24,000 nt of DNA from Candidatus Micrarchaeota archaeon (GTDB lineage Archaea; Micrarchaeota; Micrarchaeia; Micrarchaeales; Micrarchaeaceae). The DNA is taken from assembly GCA_021827995.1 (NCBI GenBank), contig JAKATK010000014.1, positions 10,888-34,887 of the forward strand, read 5' to 3'. Of the stretch, positions 1 to 24,000 are shown piece by piece. The position numbers and the translations under genes were made by a program. Every line of letters starts with the position of its first letter. Within the stretch, counting starts at the first letter, position 1. Below the pieces are notes generated by a model. It was not told where the DNA came from. It did no database searches and was given only the letters and a program-made list of their open reading frames with translations.

Positions 1-774
1 CTATTCGGCGTAGTGATAATAATCGCATATGCCGCGTTCACATATCTCTACGGCGACAAGTTCGTGCTTAAGATGTCCGGCGCCAAGCCGGCTGACAGGA
101 ACCAGTACCCAGAATACTTCAGCGCCGTAGAAGGGCTGTCTGCCGCAGCAGAGGTGCCGACGCCCAAGGTCTACGTCATCAACGACCCGAGCCCGAATGC
201 CTTCGCTACCGGGCGCAACAAGAAGGTTTCGGCGATAGCCGCCACGACAGGCCTGCTTTCGACGATGAACAGGCGCGAGCTCGATGGCGTGGTCGGCCAC
301 GAGATGTCGCACATAAGCAACAACGACATACAGTTCATGATGGTGGCGATAGTCTTCGCCGGCGCGATCGGAATCATCGCAGCCATATTCAGGGGCATGT
401 TCTTCTTCGGCGGCTTCTACGGAGGTGGCGGCAACCGCAACAACGGCGGCCTGCTCCTGCTTCTGGCTCTTGTCGTCGGCCTCCTGGCCCCGTTCTTCGC
501 GCTTTTGCTCCGCCTCGCCATATCGAGGCGCAGGGAGTACATGGCCGACGCAAACGGCGCCAGGATGACTAGGGATCCGCACGCGCTCGCGGATGCGCTC
601 GGCAAGATACAGCAGTACACGAAAAGCCAGAAGGCACAGCCTGTCAAGCGCGCCAACGAGGTAACGGCATCGCTGTACTTCGCAAACCCACTCAGCGCCA
701 AGAGCGTTGCCAACCTATTCTCAACGCACCCGCCGATAGAGGAGAGGATAAAGAGACTGGAGAAGATGTACTGA
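1..774 (+). CDS. htpX: HtpX-like M48 zinc metalloprotease, 5' end cut by window edge
   Basis: Frame 1 is open from base 1 (track ORF 13..774). HExxH is present in GVVGHEMSHISNND, followed by a Gly-rich loop, hydrophobic segments and the C-terminal STHPPIEERIKRL typical of HtpX. Stop TGA at 772-774. Confidence 0.85.
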   Translation, partial: LFGVVIIIAYAAFTYLYGDKFVLKMSGAKPADRNQYPEYFSAVEGLSAAAEVPTPKVYVINDPSPNAFATGRNKKVSAIAATTGLLSTMNRRELDGVVGHEMSHISNNDIQFMMVAIVFAGAIGIIAAIFRGMFFFGGFYGGGGNRNNGGLLLLLALVVGLLAPFFALLLRLAISRRREYMADANGARMTRDPHALADALGKIQQYTKSQKAQPVKRANEVTASLYFANPLSAKSVANLFSTHPPIEERIKRLEKMY

Positions 775-6654: not shown

Positions 6655-6915
6655 ATGAATTGGATTGGCGATTCTGTGACAAGCGTTCGTCCTATGGAAC
6701 CTGAACCGTTGCCTCCGTTCAAGGCAGGTGACAGGGTCTCTGTCACGCTGGATATGGTCGAGAAGGGCGGCAAGCATGCGTTCGGGACAGTCGATGGCCG
6801 CTGGGTCGTCGAGGTCGCTCCTTCATCCGGCAGGCCTGGGCTTGCCATAGGCCAGAGGGTCGAGGTCGTCATAACAGAGACACGGCCTGGCCACGCCAGC
6901 GGCAGGCAGGTGTGA
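6655..6915 (+). CDS. Small TRAM-like beta-barrel protein (module A)
   Basis: FKAGDRVSVTLDMVEKGGKHAFGTVDGRWVVEV...LAIGQRVEVVITETRPGHASG follows the standalone archaeal TRAM pattern (xGDxxxVxI...G.G.A...G..v.V.....iGq.V.V.I). The alternative start ATG 6694 (MEPEPLPP..., 73 aa) fits better with the TATA-like CATAATAAT at 6632-6640. Confidence 0.55.
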   Translation: MNWIGDSVTSVRPMEPEPLPPFKAGDRVSVTLDMVEKGGKHAFGTVDGRWVVEVAPSSGRPGLAIGQRVEVVITETRPGHASGRQV

Positions 6916-8048
6916 TGGTGGTTGTTTTGGCCGATATCATTGATGGGGGGTTCGTGGAAAAGGCGCCGACAAAGGCCACTGCGGATGTCGCCAGCGAGGA
7001 GACACCTGCTACAGTATCAGAGCCAGAAATAAACGAGAACGTTGACCAGGAGCGCTTCGCGGCCTTCAGGTTGTACGTCGAAGGGCAGATACGCACCACG
7101 CTGGACAGGTTACGGCCGCTATACAAGGATGCCCATGAGTCTATGCTGGGCAAGGACGCGATGATGACAGAGTTGAGGATGCCAAAGATAGTCGTATCGC
7201 AGTTCGAGAATCCAGGCGACCTATCCACACTTGCGCAAGCCGACTTCTCGTCCAACACGATAACCGTATTCCTGCCGCAGTTCAAGGAATTCTCCGATAT
7301 GCAGGACTCCAAGAGCGATAAAACGCGCGCCGACCTCAGGGCCAGCATCGAGACCACCCTAGGGCACGAGCTAGGTCACATGCTTATAGACCGCCTAATA
7401 TTCGATGCACGCATCAGCGGGAGGTACAACGACCGGTCGCAGTGGCCGCTCTCCTTCGTCTACGAGGGCAGCGGCAAGAGGATGCAGGAGGCTCTCGCCC
7501 AGGTCATCGGCACGTACGTGCATCTGTCGCTTGAGGGCCGCGAGACGGACTGCGCCTCCATCGCCGAGAATATGCTTGGCAAGCTCGCTAGCTCCTTCGA
7601 CGGTTGCGCAAGGTACCACAAGAACTTCATCGACCATTACGATGCAGAGATAAGGGACATGGGCATCGACGTCCTGCGCGACCGCCACGTCAAGGAGCCT
7701 ACTGACGAGGAGATAAAGCTTGCCGGGCTGGAGCGTTTCAAGGAGACCTGTGCATGCCAGACCAACTGGTACCTAGTCTACGGACTGCCGCGTGCCGGCC
7801 TTGCGTCGGCCATGGTGGAGCGCGGCAGCAGCAGCCTGGCCTCATTCATAAGCGATGCGTTGCTTAAGCCGGAGAGCCTCGGTCCTGCGATCAGCAACGA
7901 GATAATGGACGGTGACAACCACGTCGAGAGGTTGGACGCGGAACTGGGCAACGCGACGCTGGCAGCCAAGAACGAGATATTGTACAAGCGGTTCCTGGCC
8001 GCGAAGGAACTGCCCGCTGTCAAGCGTGCGCGCGCCGCCTCGTCCTGA
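6915..8048 (+). CDS. Hypothetical protein with HExxH...E (gluzincin-like) metallopeptidase signature (module A)
   Basis: 377 aa. TTLGHELGHMLIDRL is followed 36 residues later by RMQEALAQVIGTY. The HELGH context recalls ImmA/IrrE (M78)-type or MA-clan peptidases. An acidic, low-complexity N-terminus precedes it. ATG 6915 overlaps the TRAM-like stop TGA 6913-6915. Genome-typical ATA/AGG codon usage supports coding. I did not recognise a family. Confidence 0.55.
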   Translation: MVVVLADIIDGGFVEKAPTKATADVASEETPATVSEPEINENVDQERFAAFRLYVEGQIRTTLDRLRPLYKDAHESMLGKDAMMTELRMPKIVVSQFENPGDLSTLAQADFSSNTITVFLPQFKEFSDMQDSKSDKTRADLRASIETTLGHELGHMLIDRLIFDARISGRYNDRSQWPLSFVYEGSGKRMQEALAQVIGTYVHLSLEGRETDCASIAENMLGKLASSFDGCARYHKNFIDHYDAEIRDMGIDVLRDRHVKEPTDEEIKLAGLERFKETCACQTNWYLVYGLPRAGLASAMVERGSSSLASFISDALLKPESLGPAISNEIMDGDNHVERLDAELGNATLAAKNEILYKRFLAAKELPAVKRARAASS

Positions 8049-11971: not shown

Positions 11972-13930
11972 TCAGAGGCCCTTCTCGATCGCGTCCATAA
12001 TCTCGTGGGCTAGGAGCTCCTTCGTGCCGTCTACAAGCTTGGACGAGCCATCACGCATCAGTATGTGGGCGCGGTGCCTCGCCTCGGTGACCTGTGAGGA
12101 GTCGTTCAGCACCATGAGGCCGGCGCCGAGCTCCTTCATCCTGTGCCGGCCTGCTTCTATCATCCCCTTGTCGCTCATCATGTACTCCAGCTTGAAGCCG
12201 GCTATGAACAACTTCGGGAACTCTCTCGCTACCCTCTCTATGATCTTCGGAGTTGGCGTGAGCGACAGGTTCCACTTCCCGGTTGACTTTAGCTTGGTAT
12301 GCAGCTTGCTCTCAGGTTCGAAGTCCAGGACCGCGGCCGCGAATATTGCGGCATCGTATGGGCCAGACCTTAACTCCGAGAGGGTAGCGTCCAGCATCTC
12401 CTCAACCGTATTTGCCGCTATAGATCCCACGTACATCGGAACTGGCACCCTGGCTGGCCCAGTTATTACCTTGATCTCGCAGCCGCGCCTGAAGGCCTCC
12501 CTCGCTATGCTCGCGCCAAGCGCCCCGCTCGAGCTGTTCGATATGTACCTGACAGCGTCAAGGTAGTACCTGGTGGGCCCGGAGAGCAGCAGGATCCTCC
12601 TGCCTCTCAGCCTGCCTACGGCCAACTTCCTGTGCACGCTGTCCGAAACCTCGCGTATGCCAGGTATCTTGGCGATGCCCTCATCGATCCTTGGCGCTAT
12701 CACCATCGCGCCGCGCTTCCGCAGCTCCGCCAGGCTCTCCTTAAGCAGCGGATTGTCGTACAGCTTCATGTTCATGGCCGGCACTACTATCAGCTTGTCA
12801 TTGGGGTTGGCCGCGCACAGCGTCGTCACTGCGGTGTCCGCTATTCCAAGCGCAATCTTCCGTATAGTGTTCAGCGTCGCAGGGTAAACCAGTATTGCGT
12901 CGTAATCGGTGAGGTGCTCAGACATGCCGGTCAGGTGCGTGACCACGCCCCTGCCGGTCGCCCACTCCATGAGCGCTGGGCTGACGCCGAACTTCACAGC
13001 GCCATCGGTCATGAAGCACTCTACGTCGCAGCCGCTCCTACGCAGTTCCCTGGCGAGCCTGGGCGCCATTACGCTCGCGACGCTACCTGACATGCACAAC
13101 GCTACGCGCCTGCCAGCCAGCCAGTCGTTCTTCAGCGTCAGTTCGCCACCGGTCGGGTGCTTAGCGAACAGGCTACTGTAGTCCCCGAAGCCGTTAGTGC
13201 ATGGATTGCCTTCGGTGTAGAGAAGCCTGGACCTGCCAGCATCATCAGCGAGCGCGATTATTGTAGACGAGGTCATCTTCCAGTCGCCTGATCCGTGGAA
13301 GCATATCGAGGCGTGGCCCTTCTGTGATACGTGGTCCGCAGCGATAACCCCGATGCGTTTCAGCGCGTCGTCCAGCGACGCGCCTGGGATGCCAGCCGCG
13401 AGTCTCATGGCCCTCTCACTCCTGAGCGCAGAGCCCTTCCTGATCGCAGCGGTGCCAGCCTTGTAGACCGCGCCCTTCCTATGGACGAAGCTGGTTATGA
13501 CGTGGACACCGGCCTCAAGCTCTGTCTTCTGTACACGGCCTTCCTCGTAAAGCACGTGGAAAGCGGAGCGCTTGTCTGCGACCACGAAGTTGCCGCGCTT
13601 ATAGCCCATAGTGACCTCCTTCACAAGATAGTCGACAGCTGTCTTGGCGTCGTCGAACATGTTGAGCAGGTCGAGCATGAGAAGGCCGCGGCTGCGCCTG
13701 AAGTCGGTATCGATACCGGTGTGCTGGTCAGTGACTGCTACGAACAGGCCGCTCTTGTTAGCACCGATCCAGGTGCCGCCGCTCCTCACGTCAATAGGCG
13801 CATAAATCTCGCGCGCGCCCTTTATCCTGCGCGGCGGGTACTCCAGCGTGTCCGAACGCTCGTACCTGTTGTGCATAGCGACTATCTGGAAGCCGTCGAT
13901 TACCCGGTAGAGCAGCACCAGAGTGCACAT
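11972..13930 (-). CDS. coaBC: Tri-domain fusion: N-terminal TANGO2/NRDE-family domain + phosphopantothenoylcysteine decarboxylase (CoaC) + phosphopantothenate-cysteine ligase (CoaB)
   Basis: Uninterrupted 652-aa ORF. Residues 1 to about 256 (nt 13163-13930) show MC start, AMHNRYE (cf. NRDE), GGTWIG, GLFVAVTD, RSRGLL, RGNFVVAD and TSSTIIALAD, collinear with human TANGO2. Residues about 272-435 (nt 12626-13117) are a flavoprotein fold with VALCMSGSVAS, SEHL and VVPAMN. Residues about 441-652 (nt 11975-12610) carry GPTRYYLDAVRYISNSSSG, AAAVLDF and KLHTKLKS, the CoaB signatures. Confidence 0.85.
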   Translation of the reverse strand: MCTLVLLYRVIDGFQIVAMHNRYERSDTLEYPPRRIKGAREIYAPIDVRSGGTWIGANKSGLFVAVTDQHTGIDTDFRRSRGLLMLDLLNMFDDAKTAVDYLVKEVTMGYKRGNFVVADKRSAFHVLYEEGRVQKTELEAGVHVITSFVHRKGAVYKAGTAAIRKGSALRSERAMRLAAGIPGASLDDALKRIGVIAADHVSQKGHASICFHGSGDWKMTSSTIIALADDAGRSRLLYTEGNPCTNGFGDYSSLFAKHPTGGELTLKNDWLAGRRVALCMSGSVASVMAPRLARELRRSGCDVECFMTDGAVKFGVSPALMEWATGRGVVTHLTGMSEHLTDYDAILVYPATLNTIRKIALGIADTAVTTLCAANPNDKLIVVPAMNMKLYDNPLLKESLAELRKRGAMVIAPRIDEGIAKIPGIREVSDSVHRKLAVGRLRGRRILLLSGPTRYYLDAVRYISNSSSGALGASIAREAFRRGCEIKVITGPARVPVPMYVGSIAANTVEEMLDATLSELRSGPYDAAIFAAAVLDFEPESKLHTKLKSTGKWNLSLTPTPKIIERVAREFPKLFIAGFKLEYMMSDKGMIEAGRHRMKELGAGLMVLNDSSQVTEARHRAHILMRDGSSKLVDGTKELLAHEIMDAIEKGL

Positions 13931-13960: not shown

Positions 13961-15889
13961 CTAGACAAAATTTAAGCTTGCGCCAGGCATGGAACCGTTG
14001 GGCGGGTATGCTCTAGTGCGTATCCAGTAGAACGTGACACTGCCACCGGAGCTTATGAATAAGCAGAGATACGATGGACCGATGTTAGGTATGTCATTTG
14101 AAGACGTAAGCTGGTTGCCGTAGTTATAATAACCATTGAGGTCTGTCTGGGACTGCCATGAGAGCGTGACTGTTATCGGGTAGCTGTAGGAACTGCCGGA
14201 TACCTGATTCGTGTTGCCGTTTGATATGGTTGGAAACTCTACCCACTGGTGCAGGCCGGAGGTAACGCCGTCAACCCATCCCCACCAACCGGAACAGCAG
14301 CCAGATGGCGTTTGCGTGTTCCAACCCAGCAGCTCGTCATGGCCATCGTATTGCGCCGTACCAGTATAGAAGTACGCGTCTGCCATCAGACCGGCGGGAG
14401 AGAGCCGGGTGGCGTAGTAGAAGAATATAGAGCCGCCGTTGCCAGTCAACGTTAAGCCGTTGTTGATGCTCTCGCCACCGCCATTGGCGCTGTAAGTCCA
14501 ACCTGACGGTACGGAAGAACCAGAGAAATCGGTGTAGACATTGAACACGTTTGCGCCGTTGTCGTACTGCGCGTATCTGGGACTTAGCTGCGGCGCCTCG
14601 CCTGCGATGGGCACGTCGAACTCCGTGCTTAACGGCTCGAACACCATGTATATCGTGTTTCCGGGCGCCGTCTGGGTTTCTCCGTTCGGCAGCTTTACCC
14701 AGAAGATCGCCTGCGACGACGATTGGTTGCTACACGCGGTCTCGGGGCAGCCCTCGAGCCACGAGGCCAGCGGCCCAGACGGGACGCCGTTCGTGAGCGA
14801 GGAGTAGAACCTTATGTTGCCCAGGTCGCCGCTCTCATAAGATGAATACGAAGAGGGGTTGAAAGTGATTTCCTGCTGGAACGTGCCTGATATCGTGCTG
14901 CCAGGATTGAGCGTTATCTGCACGTAAGGCGATGTCACTGTGAGCGTATACACGGCATTGCTCGTGGCACCGGTGAGCGCATTGGTGCCTGTCACCGTGA
15001 TCTGGTAACTGCCCGGCTGCGCCGACGCGGTGGTGTTTATCGATAGGATGCTGTTGCACGTAGGATCAGGCGTGCACGACAACGGGCTGAACGCCTTCGT
15101 TATAGTGGGCGGCGCGGTATCAGATAGCGTCACTACGTTGGCGTTGTTGGATATTGGTGTAGTAATCGTCACCAACGCGTTGGTCGACTGGCCTGCCGCG
15201 ATCGTGTTGCTGGTAGGGCTCACCGATACGGTGAAGCTGAACTGCCGCGCCGGTGGCGGTGCTGGCGGAGGCGAGGAAGATCCGGAACCTCCGCCGAAAT
15301 AGCCGCCGAACGATGCGCTGTTGGTACCCGCCTCCTTCGCCGTTATCGTAGCAACCTTCGAGTATGCCGTCGGGGCCGAGCACGGGCTCAGGCAGTAGCC
15401 CAGCCAGACGTAACCCGCGAACGGCGTCCCTATCGGAGCGTTCGCAGGTATCTGGCCGTACGCGAACTTGCTGGCGTTGAAGTCTGCGCCGACCGTTTGG
15501 CCCGGAAGTAGGTTGCCTATGAAGAGCGCCTTTGAAAGGTCGTTGGCCGTGAAGTTCTGCGGTACGCCCATACTGTTTAGCGGTTCGCCATCCGCGGCCA
15601 TGAACATAAAGGAATCGAAGTATTCCCTGCCCGTCGTCTGGCCGAATGTTATGCCTATACCGTTGGCGGTGTATACCAGGCTCTTGCAGACGAAGCCTGC
15701 TTGGGCGATGCAGGCCTGCGGTGCCAGGTTCGAGCCGTTGAAGACGCCGAGTTCGAAGAGCGCAGCTAGCACTACTGCTATGATCAGTATGGCCCATCCG
15801 TAGGTCATCAAGTACTCCATGGCTGACTGTGCTTTACTCCCGATCTTTTTGGCGATGGTACGCTGCGACTGCATGTGAATACTAACCAT
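13961..15889 (-). CDS. Large secreted/surface protein with archaeal class III (prepilin-type) signal peptide, beta-sandwich, DUF2341-like and lectin-like domains
   Basis: N-terminus ...KKIGSKA/QSAMEYLMTYGWAILIIAVVLAALF carries the Q-x-x-x-E-Y-L plus hydrophobic helix motif. It is followed by the Pro-rich linker GSGSSSPPPAPPPA, an S/T/N-rich beta-sandwich (GSYQITVTGT...YTLTVT), a DUF2341-like segment (GNIRFYSS...ASWLEGC...AIFWVKLPNG...IYMVF) and a W/G/Y-rich C-terminal lectin-like region. ATG 15874 (MQSQR...) is an alternative, possibly leaderless, start behind the TATA-like TTTAAATT at about 15897-15904. Confidence 0.75.
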   Translation of the reverse strand: MVSIHMQSQRTIAKKIGSKAQSAMEYLMTYGWAILIIAVVLAALFELGVFNGSNLAPQACIAQAGFVCKSLVYTANGIGITFGQTTGREYFDSFMFMAADGEPLNSMGVPQNFTANDLSKALFIGNLLPGQTVGADFNASKFAYGQIPANAPIGTPFAGYVWLGYCLSPCSAPTAYSKVATITAKEAGTNSASFGGYFGGGSGSSSPPPAPPPARQFSFTVSVSPTSNTIAAGQSTNALVTITTPISNNANVVTLSDTAPPTITKAFSPLSCTPDPTCNSILSINTTASAQPGSYQITVTGTNALTGATSNAVYTLTVTSPYVQITLNPGSTISGTFQQEITFNPSSYSSYESGDLGNIRFYSSLTNGVPSGPLASWLEGCPETACSNQSSSQAIFWVKLPNGETQTAPGNTIYMVFEPLSTEFDVPIAGEAPQLSPRYAQYDNGANVFNVYTDFSGSSVPSGWTYSANGGGESINNGLTLTGNGGSIFFYYATRLSPAGLMADAYFYTGTAQYDGHDELLGWNTQTPSGCCSGWWGWVDGVTSGLHQWVEFPTISNGNTNQVSGSSYSYPITVTLSWQSQTDLNGYYNYGNQLTSSNDIPNIGPSYLCLFISSGGSVTFYWIRTRAYPPNGSMPGASLNFV

Positions 15890-19196: not shown

Positions 19197-20602
19197 TAGC
19201 TGACCTTAGGGGATACCTGGGCTATTTGTCTTCTAAGAGCAGGCTCGTTGAGGTGTCTGAAAGGGTCAGCACCGACCTGGAGATATCGGCCATGACAAGC
19301 ATAGCCGGCAAGGAATCCCCCCACCACAGCAAATCGCTACTATTCAAGAACGTTGAAGGCTACGATATGCCCGTGGCTACGAACCTGTTCGGTTCGGTCG
19401 ACACAATCAGCGAACTCTTCAGCGATGCGCGCATACCAGAATTGATCACCGGTATAATGCACCCGAAGGGAGGAGCGGGCAACATGCTGAGAGGCGCGAA
19501 GGTGCTCATAGACTCGATGCCGAAGGTAGCGGGCTTCAGCAGCAGGAACTATGACAGGTTAAGCAGCCTGGACGAGCTGCCTATAATAAAGGCATGGCCG
19601 AAAGATGCCGGCAGGTTCATAACCTTGCCGTTGGTGATAACCAAGGGCCAGGACGGCTCTACGAACGTCGGCATTTACCGCATGCAGGTCTTCGATGACA
19701 TGACCACAGGCATGCACTGGCAGGCGCAGAAGGGCGGCGCGATACATGCCCACGATGCGCGGCAGGCAGGCAAGACCATGCCAGTGTCTGTTACGATAGG
19801 CACGGACCCGTTCAACATGGTATCGGCTGCCACGCCGCTGCCGCAGGGCATAAACGAGTTCGCCTTCGCAGGAATGGCCAGGCGCTCCCGCACGCAGCTC
19901 GTCAAGAACGGTGACTACCCACCTGTGCCAGCGAACTCAGAGATAATCCTGTACGGCGAGGTCGACCCGTCGGAGAAGCGCGTCGAGGGGCCGTTCGGCG
20001 ACCACACCGGCTATTACTCTATACCGGAGCCTGCAAACGTGTTCCACATAAAGGAGATATACGCCAAGAAGAATGCCGTCTACGCCGCCAGCGTAGTCGG
20101 GCACCCGTGGCACGAGGACGCGTCGATAGGCCTGTTCATGATGGACTACCTAAAGCCAATGGTGAGCATGGTCAACGACAGCATAACCGACATCTACCTG
20201 CCGCCAGAGGGCCTGTTCACGCACGTCTGCTTCATAAAGGTCAACAAGAGGTTCCCGGGAGAGGCCAGGAAGGCGATGTTCACAGTGCTCGGTCTTGGCC
20301 AGCTCTCGTTCGTCAAGATGGTCGTCGCATTCGACGATGACATAGACATAAGGGATTACGGCAGCGTGCTGTGGGCCATGGCCAGCAGGGTCGAGCCTGG
20401 GCGTGACATACAGATAATAAATGGCGCGCCGACGGACACGCTCGATCACACGGCCAATATGCCCGCATATGGCTCGAAGGTGCTAATAGACGCAACCAAG
20501 AAGAGCGCCGGCGAGGGCTACGCCAGGGAGTGGCCCGACACCATAGCTATGACCAAGGAAGTGCTGGAATCTGCGGAGAGAAAATGGCGAAAGTCAAGAT
20601 AG
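19193..20602 (+). CDS. UbiD-family (prFMN-dependent) decarboxylase
   Basis: MIADLRGYLGYL..., ITLPLVITK, GIYRMQV and EGPFGDHTGYYS signatures. ATG 19193 overlaps the upstream TGA (ATGA). Confidence 0.9.
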   Translation: MIADLRGYLGYLSSKSRLVEVSERVSTDLEISAMTSIAGKESPHHSKSLLFKNVEGYDMPVATNLFGSVDTISELFSDARIPELITGIMHPKGGAGNMLRGAKVLIDSMPKVAGFSSRNYDRLSSLDELPIIKAWPKDAGRFITLPLVITKGQDGSTNVGIYRMQVFDDMTTGMHWQAQKGGAIHAHDARQAGKTMPVSVTIGTDPFNMVSAATPLPQGINEFAFAGMARRSRTQLVKNGDYPPVPANSEIILYGEVDPSEKRVEGPFGDHTGYYSIPEPANVFHIKEIYAKKNAVYAASVVGHPWHEDASIGLFMMDYLKPMVSMVNDSITDIYLPPEGLFTHVCFIKVNKRFPGEARKAMFTVLGLGQLSFVKMVVAFDDDIDIRDYGSVLWAMASRVEPGRDIQIINGAPTDTLDHTANMPAYGSKVLIDATKKSAGEGYAREWPDTIAMTKEVLESAERKWRKSR

Positions 20603-21444
20603 CCGCTGTGCTGGCCGGTCTGTTCAGGCCCTGGCTTATCGCGTACAACCTGTCGTTCGTCTACATAGGCGTGCTCTTCGCGCATGGCATAACGCTCTAC
20701 GCCTTCGCGCTCGTCACCATCGCATTCATGGCCGCACGGCTGTCCGCGCTGCTGATGAACAGGTACGTGGACCGCGAACTGGACCTGAGGAACCCGAAGA
20801 AGCGGCACAGCGATCCAAGCCTCGCCGTACCAAGGAACACGCTACTGTACGCGTTCGCGCTTTTATCCGCGCTGTTCGTTTTCTGCGCGTACCTTCTCAA
20901 CACGCTGGCGCTGCTCCTGTCGCCAATCGTTATTGCGCTCTTCATCATAGACCCGATGCTCAAAACCAGGACTAGCAGCAGGCACTTCAGCGTTGGCGCG
21001 ATAGAGAGCATATCGCCTCTAGCCGGTTACATAGGGATAACAGGCACGTTCCCGGCGGCGCTGCCGCTCTACCTCCTTGTCGTCGGCATGATCCTTGTCG
21101 GCGGTGGCTTCGACGCGCTCTACGCCGTAGTCCACGCAGACTTCGACAGGAGCAACGGCATCAAGACCTATGCAGTCAAGTATGGTGTCGACAAGGCGCT
21201 TCGCATATCGATGGTAAGCCACGTGATCGCGATCGCGTTCATTATACTGTTCGCCTTGTCGAGCGGTTCCTTCGCCATCCTGATCGGTTCTATCGGCGCC
21301 TCAGCGATACTGCTATCGGAGCATTCTGGCATCAAGGGTGCCAACGATGCGGATTTCATGAAGCGGTTCAATATCTACAACCCGGCATTGGCCGTCGTAA
21401 TACTGGCTTCTGTGTTCGCATGGTGGTTCATGACGCTCGCATGA
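20584..21444 (+). CDS. UbiA-family aromatic prenyltransferase (UbiD-associated subfamily)
   Basis: About 8-9 TM helices. First Asp-rich motif ARLSALLMNRYVDRELDLRNP (NxxxDxxxD), second in FDALYAVVHADFDRSNG. ATG 20584 lies 19 nt inside the UbiD gene. Confidence 0.85.
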   Translation: MAKVKIAAVLAGLFRPWLIAYNLSFVYIGVLFAHGITLYAFALVTIAFMAARLSALLMNRYVDRELDLRNPKKRHSDPSLAVPRNTLLYAFALLSALFVFCAYLLNTLALLLSPIVIALFIIDPMLKTRTSSRHFSVGAIESISPLAGYIGITGTFPAALPLYLLVVGMILVGGGFDALYAVVHADFDRSNGIKTYAVKYGVDKALRISMVSHVIAIAFIILFALSSGSFAILIGSIGASAILLSEHSGIKGANDADFMKRFNIYNPALAVVILASVFAWWFMTLA

Positions 21445-21462
21445 GCTCCATTGCGAAAGCGA

Positions 21463-21472
21463 TTTATTAAAT
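21463..21472 (+). promoter_or_regulatory. Candidate TATA box (TTTATTAAAT) for the HIT gene, implying a leaderless or near-leaderless mRNA
   Basis: The box ends about 18 nt before ATG 21490, so the expected TSS falls at or next to the start codon. Confidence 0.35.
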
Positions 21473-21489
21473 GCAAATAGAGTGTGCGC

Positions 21490-21957
21490 ATGGCTGTAGA
21501 CAGAGGCGTTGCTAAGAAGGGTGCCGGCGCGTGCGTTTTCTGCGACGTCATAGCGCTAAGGGTCAATTCCCATATGGTGTACGAGGACGAGGTAGCCGTT
21601 GCTATACTCGATGCCAGCCCTCTGTTCAAGGGCCACACTCTCCTTTTACCGAGGTCGCACACCGAGGACCTGTACGCCCTGGGCGAAGGCTCGGCCGCGA
21701 GGTACTTCGCCGACTTGAGGACCTTATCCAGGGCGGTGCAAACTGCCATGGGTGCAGACGGCACCTTCGTGGCGCTTAACAACAGAGTCAGCCAGAGCGT
21801 GCCGCATATGCATTTCCACATAGTCCCGCGGAGATTCAACGACGGGTTGCGCGGCTTCTTCTGGCCGAGGACATCGTACGCCAGCGAAGCAGAGGCCGAT
21901 GAGGTGGCCGGTCGGATCAGGCGCGCCGCGATGGAGCTGGCCGCAGGCAGAACCTAG
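21490..21957 (+). CDS. HIT (histidine triad) family nucleotide hydrolase/transferase
   Basis: CVFCDVIA N-terminal motif and the histidine triad VPHMHFHIVPR. Confidence 0.9.
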   Translation: MAVDRGVAKKGAGACVFCDVIALRVNSHMVYEDEVAVAILDASPLFKGHTLLLPRSHTEDLYALGEGSAARYFADLRTLSRAVQTAMGADGTFVALNNRVSQSVPHMHFHIVPRRFNDGLRGFFWPRTSYASEAEADEVAGRIRRAAMELAAGRT

Positions 21958-22003
21958 AACGCGAAAGCGGTGAGAGCACTTGGAAGCGAGGCGCAATTCA
22001 ACG

Positions 22004-23257
22004 ATGCTCTCTTGGGTGTCAGACCTGCGGGCGGAGCTCAGCCTGTCAAGACAGGAGGTCGCCATATTCGCGGCCAAGGCCCTCAGGGTCTTCGCGTACT
22101 CGTTCATCAGCATAGTCCTGCCGGTCTACCTGCTCGAGCTGGGCTACCCCGTGCTTGTAGTCGGTGTCATCTCCTCGCTCGCTATAGGCAGCGCGGCAGC
22201 CTACAACCTGGTAGCCAGCAGATACGCGGACATTTTCGGTCGCAGAAAACTTCTCGTGATACTGGCGCTGTTGACAGCCGTTTCAGGGGTCATGTTCGCA
22301 ACTGGCTCTGGAATCGCAGCTTTCGTACTAGCGGCCATTGTGGGCCCGATAAGCGCGACAGGCACCGAGACCGGGCCGTTCATGAACGTAGAGACCGCGG
22401 CCCTCACGAAATTCTGCAGCGACAGCAACAGGACGATCACATTCAGCGCCTACAACTTCGTCGGCTATATCGCGCTGTCCCTCGGAGCGCTGTTCAGCGG
22501 GCTGCCATCGCTGCTGTCCGACTCGATAGGCAGCCTCAGGGTCATGCTATACGCGTACGCGGCCATAATGCTGGTGCTAGCCCTCATCTACCACAGGCTC
22601 GGCAACTCGCTGGAGCTAGAAGCTAAGAACCGCGGCGCAAAGAGACTTAGCGCAGAGGCCAGGGGCAGGATACTGCACCTGGCGGCGCTGTTCTCGCTAG
22701 ACGCGTTCGGCGGCGGCTTCGTTGTGCAGACGATACTCACAGCGTGGTTCTACAGCGTCTGGCACCTCAACCTCGGTTCGCTGGCCCTCGTATTCTTCAT
22801 CTCGGGCGCGATAACCGCCGCGTCGATATTCATGGCGGCCAAGGTAGCGAAGCGCATAGGCCTGCTGAACACTATGGTGTTCACCCACGCACCGTCATCG
22901 CTCTTCCTCATAGCGATCCCGTTCGCGCCTTCAGCCATCGCTGCGGTCGTGCTCCTCTTCCTCAGGCAGTCCATATCGCAAATGGACGTGCCAGCAAGGC
23001 AGTCGTACACTATGGCCATAGTCAGGCCTGAAGAGCGCGTCGCCGCCGGCAGCCTAACTAACACGCCGAGAGCAGTGGCCCAGGCCGTGGGCCCGAGCAT
23101 AGCTTCGTACATGCTGCAGTTTGCGGCCACCACGCTGCCGTTCGTTGTCGGTGGCACAATGAAGATCACCTACGACGCGCTAGTATTTCTGAGGTTCAGG
23201 CATGTGAAGCCGCCGGAGGAAGTCAGGGATTCGCGCGGAGCGGCAAAAAAGATATAA
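22004..23257 (+). CDS. MFS transporter
   Basis: About 12 TM helices and MFS motif A between TM2 and TM3 (YADIFGRRKLL). ATG 22004 is preferred over TTG 21980. Confidence 0.8.
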   Translation: MLSWVSDLRAELSLSRQEVAIFAAKALRVFAYSFISIVLPVYLLELGYPVLVVGVISSLAIGSAAAYNLVASRYADIFGRRKLLVILALLTAVSGVMFATGSGIAAFVLAAIVGPISATGTETGPFMNVETAALTKFCSDSNRTITFSAYNFVGYIALSLGALFSGLPSLLSDSIGSLRVMLYAYAAIMLVLALIYHRLGNSLELEAKNRGAKRLSAEARGRILHLAALFSLDAFGGGFVVQTILTAWFYSVWHLNLGSLALVFFISGAITAASIFMAAKVAKRIGLLNTMVFTHAPSSLFLIAIPFAPSAIAAVVLLFLRQSISQMDVPARQSYTMAIVRPEERVAAGSLTNTPRAVAQAVGPSIASYMLQFAATTLPFVVGGTMKITYDALVFLRFRHVKPPEEVRDSRGAAKKI

Positions 23258-23262
23258 ATATA
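23252..23262 (+). promoter_or_regulatory. Candidate TATA box (ATATAAATATA) for TRAM-like module B
   Basis: A/T box straddling the MFS stop codon, about 40 nt upstream of ATG 23297. GAGGTG lies 5-10 nt before the ATG. Confidence 0.35.
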
Positions 23263-23296
23263 TGGCAGAAATAGCGCTATCCATAGAGGTGCGGCC

Positions 23297-23572
23297 ATGC
23301 CGGCAAAGAAGGGTGGAGCAGGCGAGGAGACTGGTGCCAGCATGCACCTTGCGATCGACGAATCCGAGGAGGCCGTGCAGGTGGGCGACGAACTGGATGT
23401 CAGGATAGAGCGCGTGCTGAGCAGCGGACAGGGCCAGGCCAGCATCAAGGACAATGACGGCTACCCGTATCTTATATTCGTTAGGGGCAGGAAGCTGAAG
23501 ATGGGCGAGGTTGTGAAGGTTTCCATAGTGAGGACGAGGGGTGGCGTTGCAGAGGCTGTCGCGCTCTCCTGA
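23297..23572 (+). CDS. Small TRAM-like beta-barrel protein (module B)
   Basis: VQVGDELDVRIERVLSSGQGQASIKDNDGYPYLIFVRGRKLKMGEVVKVSIVRTRGGVAEAVAL matches the standalone archaeal TRAM pattern (GDGIARv.GfvIFV.G.k.Gd.V.V.I..v....A.A). Confidence 0.65.
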   Translation: MPAKKGGAGEETGASMHLAIDESEEAVQVGDELDVRIERVLSSGQGQASIKDNDGYPYLIFVRGRKLKMGEVVKVSIVRTRGGVAEAVALS

Positions 23573-23583
23573 CCGGTGTTCTA

Positions 23584-24000
23584 ATGCAATTCAACGTAAA
23601 GGGCGTGAATATCAGGAGCGAGGAGAGCGTAGAGGCTAGCAGCGCACCGGCAGCGGCAGAGCACGCAAAGGAGGTAACGCGTCATGCGTCTACGGACAAG
23701 ACCTCCGAGCTGCGCGTCTACGCTGAGACGCGGAAGACCGAGATGTTCGTCTACATAGACGAGCTCTACATGGGCGTGCAGCGCGGACTGAACCCTTCCT
23801 TGACCAAGCTCGTTCCGATGGGTCAGCCGAGGCTTGATCAGTCGCTCAGCGACCGAAACGATGGCACCATCGCCGTGTGGGAAAGGCGCGGGCCTACTGG
23901 AGGAGTCATCACGCTTGACAAGAAAGCGCTCGACCTGTTCTCACGCATGCAGCAGTACGAGGCCGACGGCAATACAGACGCGGCTGGCAGGATAAGGCAC
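23584..24000 (+). CDS. Hypothetical protein, paralog of the 6915..8048 HExxH protein (module B), 3' end beyond window; absent from the supplied ORF track
   Basis: Hand translation gives 139 codons without a stop, from an ATG preceded by GGTG: MQFNVKGVNIRSEE...LRVYAETRKTEMFVYIDELYMGVQRGL...GVITLDKKALDLFSRMQQYEADGNTDAAGRIRH. It is collinear with 6915..8048: LRVY/FRLY, then LY at +19/20 in both, ITL/ITV at +66/67, and FSRMQ/FSDMQ at +11 from there. The window ends about where the HExxH motif would be expected. Confidence 0.55.
   Translation, partial: MQFNVKGVNIRSEESVEASSAPAAAEHAKEVTRHASTDKTSELRVYAETRKTEMFVYIDELYMGVQRGLNPSLTKLVPMGQPRLDQSLSDRNDGTIAVWERRGPTGGVITLDKKALDLFSRMQQYEADGNTDAAGRIRH

What the first reader, a model, noticed from the sequence alone, without database searches (positions are those of the whole stretch)
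23297..24000. Second copy of the TRAM-like + HExxH-family module about 15 kb from the first
Seen: a 91-aa TRAM-like protein (23297..23572) is followed after 11 nt (GGTG then ATG 23584) by an open reading frame that runs off the window. That ORF is collinear with the N-terminal 150 residues of the 6915..8048 protein. Both have an acidic A/S/E-rich leader, then LRVY vs FRLY, LY at identical spacing (+19/20), ITL vs ITV at +66/67, and FSRMQ vs FSDMQ at +11 from there. The window ends roughly 5 residues before the expected HExxH. The downstream ORF is missing from the supplied ORF track. Inference: gene order, spacing and both partners are conserved in two diverged paralogous copies. This argues that the pairing is functional rather than accidental and that the module proliferates within this genome.
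Basis: seen in the sequence. Interest (0 to 1): 0.65.

Follow-up and report, generated by a model that had tools for sequence, protein, structure and literature searches.

The report
Paired TRAM and zinc-hydrolase genes, twice
The window, from a tiny symbiotic archaeon (Micrarchaeota), carries two ancient copies of a two-gene unit that pairs a small RNA-binding-type protein (TRAM fold) with a predicted zinc hydrolase of a family not in the libraries searched; the pairing is conserved across the lineage, but what it does is unknown.

Summary
A 91-aa TRAM protein (23297-23572) is followed after 11 nt by an ORF that runs off the window. A contig 100% identical to the window end completes that ORF to 351 aa. 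It has HETAH seven residues past the window edge and a conserved Glu 16 residues later. The full-length protein matches the 6915-8048 protein (BLASTP 9e-10; clade profiles 2.7e-32). The two small proteins are also homologous (profile 5.4e-10) and match solved stand-alone TRAM structures.

An exhaustive search of 1.84 billion protein representatives finds only 33 relatives. Those with a source name are called "hypothetical protein". All species-level genome hits are Candidatus Micrarchaeota. No Pfam, NCBIfam, PADLOC, PHROGs, PDB-sequence or Foldseek match is significant.

HExxH and the downstream acidic residue are conserved in 29 of 29 members. A TRAM gene lies directly upstream in all 11 distinct modules examined in the closer subfamily. 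Small and large partners co-diverge (Mantel r=0.81). The two window copies belong to two old clades, so this is not recent proliferation.

Best reading: a cognate TRAM plus gluzincin-like metallohydrolase pair. The mechanism is inferred only. Toxin-antitoxin or defence readings have no support.

The parts
23251..23262 (+). A/T-rich TATA-like box (GATATAAATATA) about 35-45 nt upstream of the small gene. It is a candidate archaeal promoter for the module.
   Evidence: Read directly from the sequence. Its function is inferred only; no archaeal promoter tool was available.
23286..23291 (+). Shine-Dalgarno-like GAGGTG, 5 nt before ATG 23297.
   Evidence: Read from the sequence. Function inferred.
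23297..23572 (+). Small partner of module 2 (clade B): a 91-aa stand-alone TRAM-domain protein with a variable N-terminal tail of about 25 aa.
   Evidence: Pfam TRAM E 2.9e-7, 30.7 bits against cut-off 21. The family profile matches the solved stand-alone TRAM proteins 1YEZ and 1YVC at about 1e-5. It is 43-48% identical to the small partners in L009, L015 and L016.
23573..23583 (+). 11-nt spacer with GGTG (23575-23578) before ATG 23584. There is no room for a terminator or promoter, which implies co-transcription and coupled translation.
   Evidence: Sequence. The same tight spacing, from -1 to 30 nt, is seen in the other modules.
23584..24000 (+). First 139 codons of the large partner of module 2 (clade B). 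The full protein is 351 aa, with HETAH at residues 147-151 and Glu167 just beyond the window.
   Evidence: Completed from L005 (100% identical overlap) and L004. BLASTP against 6915-8045 gives 9e-10. The AlphaFold2 model has pLDDT 88 and pTM 0.86.
6655..6915 (+). Small partner of module 1 (clade A): an 86-aa divergent TRAM-type protein with a conserved PLPPxKxGD N-terminal motif.
   Evidence: Pfam TRAM is below threshold on its own (E 0.042). It is 37% identical (E 1e-17) to the L001 small protein, which passes the Pfam TRAM cut-off (24.9 bits). hhalign against the clade B small proteins gives E 5.4e-10.
6915..8048 (+). Large partner of module 1 (clade A): 377 aa. Its ATG overlaps the small gene's TGA by one base (TGATG). 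HELGH lies at residues 151-155 (bases 7365-7379) and Glu192 at bases 7488-7490.
   Evidence: Orthologues with the same TRAM gene upstream and the same GNAT and malic-enzyme genes downstream are found in L003, L006 and L018.

Best explanation
What is shown:
- The window holds two ancient paralogues (clade A at 6655-8048, clade B at 23297 to beyond 24000) of a self-contained two-gene operon.
- All four species-level genome hits for the clade B large protein are Candidatus Micrarchaeota MAGs (DPANN archaea).
- Gene 1 encodes a stand-alone TRAM beta-barrel protein of about 80-100 aa.
- Gene 2 follows within 30 nt, or overlaps the stop of gene 1. It encodes a soluble protein of about 350 aa.
- These large proteins form a family of their own. 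They have an invariant HExxH, an acidic residue on the next predicted helix (16 residues downstream of the second His in clade B, 37 in clade A), a nearly invariant Tyr, and an all-helical C-terminal domain.

What is inferred:
- The large protein is a zinc metallohydrolase of the gluzincin type, most likely a peptidase (about 0.8).
- The two proteins act together as a cognate complex (about 0.5).
- The TRAM subunit supplies binding of RNA or of an RNA-associated substrate, so that it either targets the hydrolase or gates its activity (about 0.35).

The overall confidence value refers to the combined 'cognate TRAM plus zinc hydrolase working as one unit' reading.
For: Homology of both partners across the two window modules.

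TRAM identity of the small partner: Pfam above cut-off for the module 2 protein and for the L001 protein; family profile matches solved stand-alone TRAMs 1YEZ and 1YVC.

Catalytic signature across 29 sequences with mean column identity 18%:
- H, E and H of HExxH are 29/29.
- The acidic position is 25 Glu plus 4 Asp.
- Gly174 is 28/29 and Tyr242 is 28/29.

A confident AlphaFold2 model (pLDDT 88, pTM 0.86) shows a beta-hairpin, then a helix carrying HExxH, then a helix carrying the Glu. From my own knowledge this is the order expected in zincins.

The only recurrent weak Pfam hits are putative metallopeptidases: DUF4344 in 8 members, DUF5700 in 3, M48 in 3.

Pairing: a TRAM-type ORF lies immediately upstream in all 11 distinct modules of the closer subfamily. 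The flanking genes differ, and nothing else is conserved around the pair.

Purifying selection acts on both genes. Partner divergence is correlated, Mantel r = 0.81, p = 2e-4.
Against: There is no direct evidence of interaction, zinc binding, or peptidase or RNA-binding activity.

Foldseek finds no significant structural neighbour for the confident model, including no zincin (best E 0.2 in PDB and 0.18 in BFVD). The zincin assignment therefore rests on motifs and the order of secondary-structure elements.

All matches to named peptidase families are below their curated cut-offs.

The more distant family members examined (P0020, P0021, P0025, P0026) have no TRAM gene next to them, so the hydrolase does not always need a TRAM encoded next to it.

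The small proteins are neutral to acidic (pI 5.0-6.8), which gives no electrostatic support for RNA binding.

Correlated divergence is expected for any two tightly linked genes and does not prove contact.
Confidence: 0.5

Rival explanations
1. Protease-and-regulator switch, working like ImmA/ImmR or IrrE/DdrO. The TRAM protein would be a post-transcriptional regulator or RNA chaperone and the cognate substrate of the adjacent metalloprotease, which would cleave it in response to a signal.
For: The layout matches: a small nucleic-acid-binding-type protein is encoded immediately upstream of, and coupled to, an HExxH enzyme. Partner pairs diverge together in two or more paralogous sets per genome. 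The module TRAMs carry variable N-terminal tails of 20-45 aa that short stand-alone TRAMs such as 1YEZ (68 aa) and 1YVC (70 aa) lack; these could be cleavage or docking segments.
Against: There is no sequence relationship to ImmA/IrrE-type peptidases in the Pfam or NCBIfam scans. The partner is a TRAM, not a helix-turn-helix protein. The modules examined are not in prophage-like contexts and PHROGs gave no hit. No cleavage evidence exists.
Confidence: 0.2
2. The large protein is an HExxH metallohydrolase that is not a peptidase. It would act on an RNA-linked or nucleotide substrate that the TRAM subunit presents, in the way fused TRAM domains present RNA in MiaB- or RumA-type enzymes.
For: From my own knowledge, TRAM is best known as the substrate-binding module of RNA-modifying enzymes, and stand-alone archaeal TRAMs have reported RNA chaperone activity (PMC5572242, PMC6705878). 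The large protein has no significant structural match to any solved peptidase.
Against: HExxH plus a downstream Glu and a conserved Tyr is the classic gluzincin peptidase signature (my own knowledge). The only recurrent weak hits are to putative peptidases. No nuclease or nucleotide-hydrolase family was hit.
Confidence: 0.15
3. Toxin-antitoxin, immunity or defence pair. One partner would neutralise the other, and copies would spread as selfish or defensive modules.
For: The unit is a compact two-gene operon with more than one diverged copy per genome. Some copies lie beside defence-type or mobile genes: AbiEii/AbiEi, an AAA_14 ATPase and HsdR around P0015; a PIN-RHH pair and an AAA_14 ATPase a few genes from module 2 in L004; a TnpB-like gene beside the decaying copy in L017.
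Against: PADLOC and PHROGs gave no hit. Clade A occupies the same core chromosomal site (GNAT and malic-enzyme genes downstream) in at least three diverged lineages, which indicates vertical inheritance. The paralogues are ancient, not recent. dN/dS is low for both genes. The family was not found in the viral contig scan.
Confidence: 0.1
4. The two genes are only co-transcribed and work independently: a general RNA chaperone and a housekeeping peptidase that happen to share an operon.
For: Distant family members occur without a TRAM neighbour. Stand-alone TRAMs are common, abundant archaeal proteins (PMC6705878).
Against: The adjacency survives in both ancient paralogues and in all 11 distinct modules of the closer subfamily while every flanking gene changes. 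The small proteins split into the same clades as their large partners. Spacing stays tight enough for translational coupling. The one copy that lost its TRAM is also frameshifted.
Confidence: 0.1

Closest known systems
Stand-alone archaeal TRAM proteins (RNA chaperones such as TRAM0076 of Methanococcus maripaludis; solved structures 1YEZ and 1YVC; Pfam PF01938)
   Same: They share size class and domain. The module 2 small protein passes the Pfam TRAM cut-off. The family profile aligns over the whole length of 1YEZ and 1YVC (E about 1e-5).
   Different: The module TRAMs carry N-terminal tails of 20-45 aa and are always encoded directly upstream of an HExxH protein. They score far below the NCBIfam PyTRAM equivalog cut-off (22 against 85 bits). 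The clade A proteins are so divergent that they fall below the Pfam threshold on their own. RNA chaperone activity is untested.
Gluzincin-type zinc metallopeptidases (thermolysin-like HExxH...E enzymes; the Pfam putative peptidases DUF4344 and DUF5700, and family M48)
   Same: Both have an invariant HExxH on a helix, a conserved Glu/Asp on the following helix, a conserved Tyr, and a beta-hairpin before the active-site helix. Weak recurrent hits go to these families.
   Different: No hit reaches any curated cut-off. No solved structure matches the confident model. The family has a long N-terminal helix and an all-helical C-terminal domain of about 160 aa with its own conserved motif (Y-x-x-P-x-L-G...A-L...F-I). 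Only 33 representative clusters exist among 1.84 billion.
ImmA/IrrE-type metalloprotease plus cognate repressor pairs (my own knowledge)
   Same: The operon logic is alike: a small nucleic-acid-binding-type protein gene lies immediately upstream of an HExxH protease gene, in cognate, co-diverging pairs.
   Different: No such peptidase family was among the hits of the Pfam and NCBIfam scans. The partner is a TRAM beta-barrel rather than a helix-turn-helix repressor. The context is chromosomal, not prophage or integrative element.
Enzymes with a fused TRAM domain (MiaB, RimO, RumA; also aIF2-beta with a C-terminal TRAM)
   Same: A TRAM module is attached to a catalytic or functional partner, where it binds the macromolecular substrate (my own knowledge). 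The module 2 TRAM hits the C-terminal TRAM part of an aIF2-beta model at E 8.7e-7.
   Different: Here the TRAM is a separate polypeptide, and the partner is a zinc hydrolase rather than a radical-SAM enzyme or methyltransferase. No TRAM-hydrolase fusion was found among the family members.

Membership tests
TRAM domain (Pfam PF01938) | Sequence match above the Pfam gathering score | tested here: met
   Module 2 small protein scores 30.7 bits against 21. Module 1 small protein scores only 14.1 bits on its own, but it is 37% identical (E 1e-17) to the L001 partner, which scores 24.9 bits. It also aligns with the clade B profile at E 5.4e-10.
TRAM domain (Pfam PF01938) | Small beta-barrel fold like the solved stand-alone TRAMs | tested here: inconclusive
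   The profile of the 10 small proteins matches 1YEZ_A (1.2e-5) and 1YVC_A (4.5e-5) over almost their whole length. No structure of the small proteins was predicted because both prediction jobs went to the large proteins.
TRAM domain (Pfam PF01938) | Binds RNA | not testable with these tools
   Needs gel-shift or chaperone assays. The pI of 5.0-6.8 is uninformative.
Stand-alone TRAM RNA chaperone (NCBIfam NF053605, PyTRAM equivalog) | Score above the equivalog cut-off (85 bits) | tested here: not met
   22.1 bits for the module 2 small protein and 13.2 bits for the module 1 small protein.
Gluzincin-type zinc metallopeptidase | Invariant HExxH | tested here: met
   H, E and H are 29/29 across an alignment with 18% mean column identity. 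The motif is HELGH in module 1 and HETAH in module 2.
Gluzincin-type zinc metallopeptidase | Third zinc ligand: a Glu on the helix after the active-site helix | tested here: met
   The acidic residue is 29/29 (25 Glu, 4 Asp) in the motif E-[GSA]-L-A-E-x-I-G-x-Y. It lies on predicted helix 163-181, which directly follows the HExxH helix 131-155.
Gluzincin-type zinc metallopeptidase | Structural similarity of the catalytic domain to solved zincins | tested here: not met
   Foldseek of the pLDDT 88 model against PDB found no hit with E below 0.2. M4 peptidases such as LasB appear only at E about 6, over 47-142 columns. BFVD gives the same picture. This may reflect the small size of the catalytic core next to the large helical domain.
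Gluzincin-type zinc metallopeptidase | Membership of a curated peptidase family (Pfam or NCBIfam cut-off) | tested here: not met
   The best hits are all below cut-off: DUF4344 at 9e-4, DUF5700 at 4e-4, M48 at 0.04, flagellinolysin at 1.4e-3.
Gluzincin-type zinc metallopeptidase | Zinc-dependent peptide-bond hydrolysis | not testable with these tools
   Needs biochemistry.
Toxin-antitoxin or anti-phage defence system | Match to a known or candidate defence protein model | tested here: not met
   PADLOC gave no hit for either partner of either module, nor for P0007 or P0009.
Toxin-antitoxin or anti-phage defence system | Patchy, mobile distribution in variable genome regions | tested here: inconclusive
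   Clade A is in conserved synteny with GNAT and malic-enzyme genes in three lineages. Some other copies lie near AbiE, PIN-RHH, HsdR or TnpB genes.
ImmA/IrrE-type protease with cognate repressor | Protease belongs to the ImmA/IrrE peptidase family and the partner is a helix-turn-helix repressor | tested here: not met
   Neither the individual Pfam and NCBIfam tables nor the top 25 of the 26 Pfam families hit by the 33 members included such a family. The partner is a TRAM.

The most novel reading that the evidence does not exclude
The pair is a new kind of two-component enzyme in which a free-standing TRAM subunit couples recognition of RNA, or of an RNA-bound substrate, to a zinc peptidase of a new fold family. 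In effect it would be an RNA-targeted or RNA-gated protease. It would be specific to Micrarchaeota and kept in two or more cognate versions despite genomes of about 1 Mb or less (genome sizes from PMC12892359). I found no paper in the searched library that links a TRAM domain with HExxH or zincin proteins.
Probability: 0.25. Interest if true: 0.7.

Novelty: new variant of a known kind. Interest (0 to 1): 0.5.

Why it matters
If the reading is right, this defines a previously unnamed family of zinc hydrolases. It has no Pfam or NCBIfam model and no structural neighbour among solved structures. It also defines an undescribed partnership between a protease-like enzyme and a TRAM protein.

Micrarchaeota genomes are very small (about 0.3-1.2 Mb; PMC12892359). 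Keeping two or more diverged copies of the pair there suggests that it does something these symbionts need.

The system is small, soluble and easy to test: two proteins, one clear catalytic glutamate to mutate, and two natural cognate pairs for swap experiments. It could show whether stand-alone archaeal TRAM proteins act as adaptors for enzymes and not only as general RNA chaperones.

If it turns out to be an ordinary housekeeping peptidase with a co-transcribed chaperone, the result is just a useful annotation for a set of 'hypothetical proteins'.

Tried and rejected
Searches that led nowhere:
- Searching the 139-aa fragment in the word-indexed protein database found nothing, not even itself. 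The continuation came instead from an exact look-up of the TRAM protein.
- The search for related loci with broad alignments failed because no stretch was conserved enough.
- The metagenome scan with clade A and the viral scan with clade B returned only generic HELGH pattern hits and no relatives.
- The PDB sequence search with the family profile gave no hit better than E = 0.47.
- Foldseek with the first, shallow model (pLDDT 76) and with the better model (pLDDT 88) gave no significant match in PDB or BFVD.
- PADLOC and PHROGs gave no hit.

Ideas considered and rejected:
- A third conserved gene in the module. The genes of about 230 aa upstream of several modules are unrelated to each other: ankyrin-repeat proteins in L009, L015 and L016, and different proteins in L011 and L025.
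- The GNAT gene as part of the module. It accompanies only clade A, its orientation differs between loci, and the L001 and window GNATs are only 26% identical.
- An acidic N-terminal leader acting as a conserved RNA mimic that docks on the TRAM. The leader's charge and sequence are not conserved.
- An LSM gene upstream of the distant member P0025 as a TRAM substitute. A sequence that looks like a tRNA gene (by eye; not run through ARAGORN) and a promoter-like A/T box separate the two.

dN/dS between the window and its 98-99% identical relatives was uninformative because there were too few differences.
Full report
**1. What is in the window**

The window is archaeal chromosome at about 58% G+C. 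It carries aIF5A, ribosomal protein S24e, SepF, tRNA-intron endonuclease, CoaBC, UbiD/UbiA and other housekeeping genes.

Its tRNA-intron endonuclease is 74% identical to that of a MAG labelled Candidatus Micrarchaeota. All four species-level genome hits for the protein family studied here are Micrarchaeota MAGs. The source is therefore a member of Micrarchaeota (DPANN archaea).

**2. The observation**

ATG 23297 to TGA 23572 encodes a 91-aa protein that passes the Pfam TRAM cut-off (30.7 bits against 21). After 11 nt containing GGTG, ATG 23584 opens a frame that runs to the last base of the window (139 codons). It is absent from the ORF list only because ORFs that run off the end are not listed.

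The E-value is only 0.078, and the two small proteins show nothing pairwise. So the window alone gave a good lead, not proof.

**3. Extending past the window**

An exact look-up of the 91-aa protein returned two contigs. L005 is 100% identical to window 19984-24000, and L004 is 98.5% identical. Both complete the ORF to the same 351-aa protein.

That protein has GHETAH, with HExxH at residues 147-151, seven residues beyond the window edge. EEGLAELIGFY follows at 166-176 and aligns with QEALAQVIGTY of the first protein.

- Full length against 6915-8045: E = 9e-10.
- Against the independent relative P0002: E = 3e-13.

**4. The family**

The word-indexed search of 5.8 billion proteins found only a 98% identical orthologue (P0001), one 30% identical relative (P0002) and the module 2 protein itself (P0003).

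The exhaustive HMMER profile search of 1.84 billion representatives found 33 proteins at E up to 1e-3, and 11 at E up to 1e-30. Most are 330-400 aa. Wherever a source names them, they are 'hypothetical protein'.

In a 29-sequence alignment with 18% mean column identity:
- the H, E and H of HExxH are 29/29;
- an acidic residue (25 Glu, 4 Asp) heads a conserved E-[GSA]-L-A-E-x-I-G-x-Y motif;
- Gly174 and Tyr242 are each 28/29.

The module 2 protein is an atypical member. It has HETAH where 23 of 29 have HELGH, Trp for the usual Tyr99, and Asn for Asp187. It keeps all the candidate catalytic residues.

No Pfam, NCBIfam, PADLOC or PHROGs model is matched significantly. The only recurrent weak hits are putative metallopeptidases: DUF4344, DUF5700 and M48.

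**5. Structure**

With three sequences the model of the module 1 protein was mediocre (pLDDT 76). With 29 sequences the module 2 protein gave pLDDT 88 and pTM 0.86. Its elements in order are:
- a disordered stretch, residues 1-35;
- a long helix, 32-69;
- a beta-hairpin, 97-112;
- a helix, 113-127;
- a helix, 131-155, carrying HETAH;
- a helix, 163-181, carrying Glu167;
- an all-helical C-terminal domain, 188-350.

From my own knowledge this order of elements is what a minimal gluzincin core looks like. However, Foldseek finds nothing significant in PDB or BFVD. M4 peptidases, 'lethal factor' and SprT-like proteins appear only at E of about 0.7 to 7. The zincin assignment rests on motifs and element order, not on a fold match.

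**6. The pairing**

A TRAM-type ORF lies directly upstream of the large gene in every distinct module examined in the closer subfamily. The spacing runs from a one-base overlap (TGATG) to 30 nt, apart from L015, where the large gene's start is uncertain and the first ATG gives a 29-nt overlap. The modules are:
- both window modules;
- L001 (P0002);
- L003 (the orthologue of module 1);
- L006-L008 (P0004);
- L009/L010 (P0007);
- L011/L012 (P0009);
- L015, L016 and L018 (Micrarchaeota MAGs);
- L023 (P0016);
- L024 (P0015).

Flanking genes differ from module to module, and no third gene is conserved.

The large proteins split into clade A (module 1 type, with insertions after the HExxH helix) and clade B (module 2 type). 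The small proteins split the same way.

- hhalign of the clade profiles gives 99.9%, E = 2.7e-32 for the large proteins.
- It gives 96.6%, E = 5.4e-10 for the small proteins.
- The combined small-protein profile matches the solved stand-alone TRAMs 1YEZ and 1YVC.
- Pairwise identities of small and large partners are correlated over ten modules (r = 0.81, Mantel p = 2e-4).
- dN/dS is 0.07 for the small gene and 0.14 for the large gene in the closest informative pair, with dS near saturation.

Six-frame HMM scans show exactly two large and two small copies in the window.

**7. Limits of the pairing**

The more distant members that were looked up (P0020, P0021, P0025, P0026) have no TRAM neighbour. 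P0025 at least seems to come from a related lineage, because the LSM protein encoded next to it is 75% identical to one in the P0004 locus L008, which is not itself labelled.

One MAG has a frameshifted, TRAM-less clade B copy beside a TnpB-like gene. Another has one TRAM followed by two tandem large genes that are 43% identical to each other.

**8. Age of the duplication**

The window paralogues are 19% (large) and 23% (small) identical. Orthologues across genera are 28-53% (large) and 37-65% (small) identical.

Clade A keeps the same downstream neighbours, a GNAT gene and a malic-enzyme gene on the minus strand, in the window, L003, L006 and L018. One other MAG also carries both clades. The duplication therefore predates the divergence of these lineages. 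This is retention of two old paralogues, not ongoing proliferation.

**9. How it most likely works**

Shown: a conserved, tightly coupled TRAM plus HExxH gene pair, with catalytic-type residues invariant and both genes under purifying selection.

Inferred: the large protein is a zinc metallohydrolase, probably a peptidase. It works with its cognate TRAM, which contributes binding of RNA or of an RNA-associated substrate. Published work reports RNA chaperone activity for stand-alone archaeal TRAMs (PMC5572242, PMC6705878).

The rivals are listed in the rival-explanations section with the results that would refute each:
- an ImmA/IrrE-like switch in which the TRAM is the substrate;
- a non-peptidase hydrolase acting on an RNA-linked substrate;
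- a toxin-antitoxin or defence pair;
- independent functions in a shared operon.

None can be excluded by sequence analysis. The toxin-antitoxin and defence readings have the least support.

**10. Novelty**

No paper in the searched library links a TRAM domain with HExxH or zincin proteins. A recent Micrarchaeota genomics paper mentions neither TRAM nor proteases.

I rate this as a new variant of a known kind. The catalytic signature and the TRAM domain are both familiar. The family, its fold context and the partnership are undescribed.

Noticed in passing
window 11972-13930 (- strand): A single 652-aa ORF fuses an N-terminal TANGO2 domain (Pfam E 2.4e-10, above cut-off) to CoaBC (Flavoprotein plus DFP domains). 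A disease review on TANGO2 and lipid imbalance also mentions phosphopantothenoylcysteine (PMC11179719, found but not read). A natural TANGO2-CoaBC fusion could be informative about TANGO2 function.
   Followed up: partly
window 13961-15889 (- strand); L004 10839-12362: A 642-aa ORF without any Pfam match starts with KAQSAMEYLMTYGWAILIIAVVLAALFELGVF, which I recognise as an archaeal type IV pilin-like (class III) signal peptide. Its 5' end is 84% identical in DNA to the Gly-rich 507-aa gene that directly follows module 2 in the related contig L004. These are paralogous surface or pilin-like proteins.
   Followed up: partly
L016 3520-6029 (Micrarchaeota MAG JAJYYB010000017.1): One TRAM gene is followed by two tandem large HExxH genes that are 43% identical to each other. 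This is a local duplication of the large partner only.
   Followed up: partly
L017 4720-5756 (Micrarchaeota MAG DAHVQB010000001.1): A clade B large gene is split over two frames and has no TRAM upstream. It lies between the tRNA-intron endonuclease gene and a 440-aa TnpB-like gene, and appears to be a decaying copy.
   Followed up: partly
L004 12998-16253: In the 98.5% identical relative, the region a few genes downstream of module 2 holds an AAA_14/DUF4143 ATPase and a PIN plus RHH toxin-antitoxin pair. This region lies beyond the window end, so whether the window strain has it is unknown.
   Followed up: no
L021 1128-2648 (P0020): A distant 506-aa family member with an N-terminal extension of about 150 aa lies near a phage-type integrase and a family B DNA polymerase. 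It may be on an integrated element. PHROGs gave no hit.
   Followed up: partly
window 13-774 (+); L003 2245-3851: The window starts inside an M48 (HtpX-like) peptidase gene. In the 98.8% identical contig L003 a LemA gene precedes it. This peptidase is unrelated to the family studied here.
   Followed up: no
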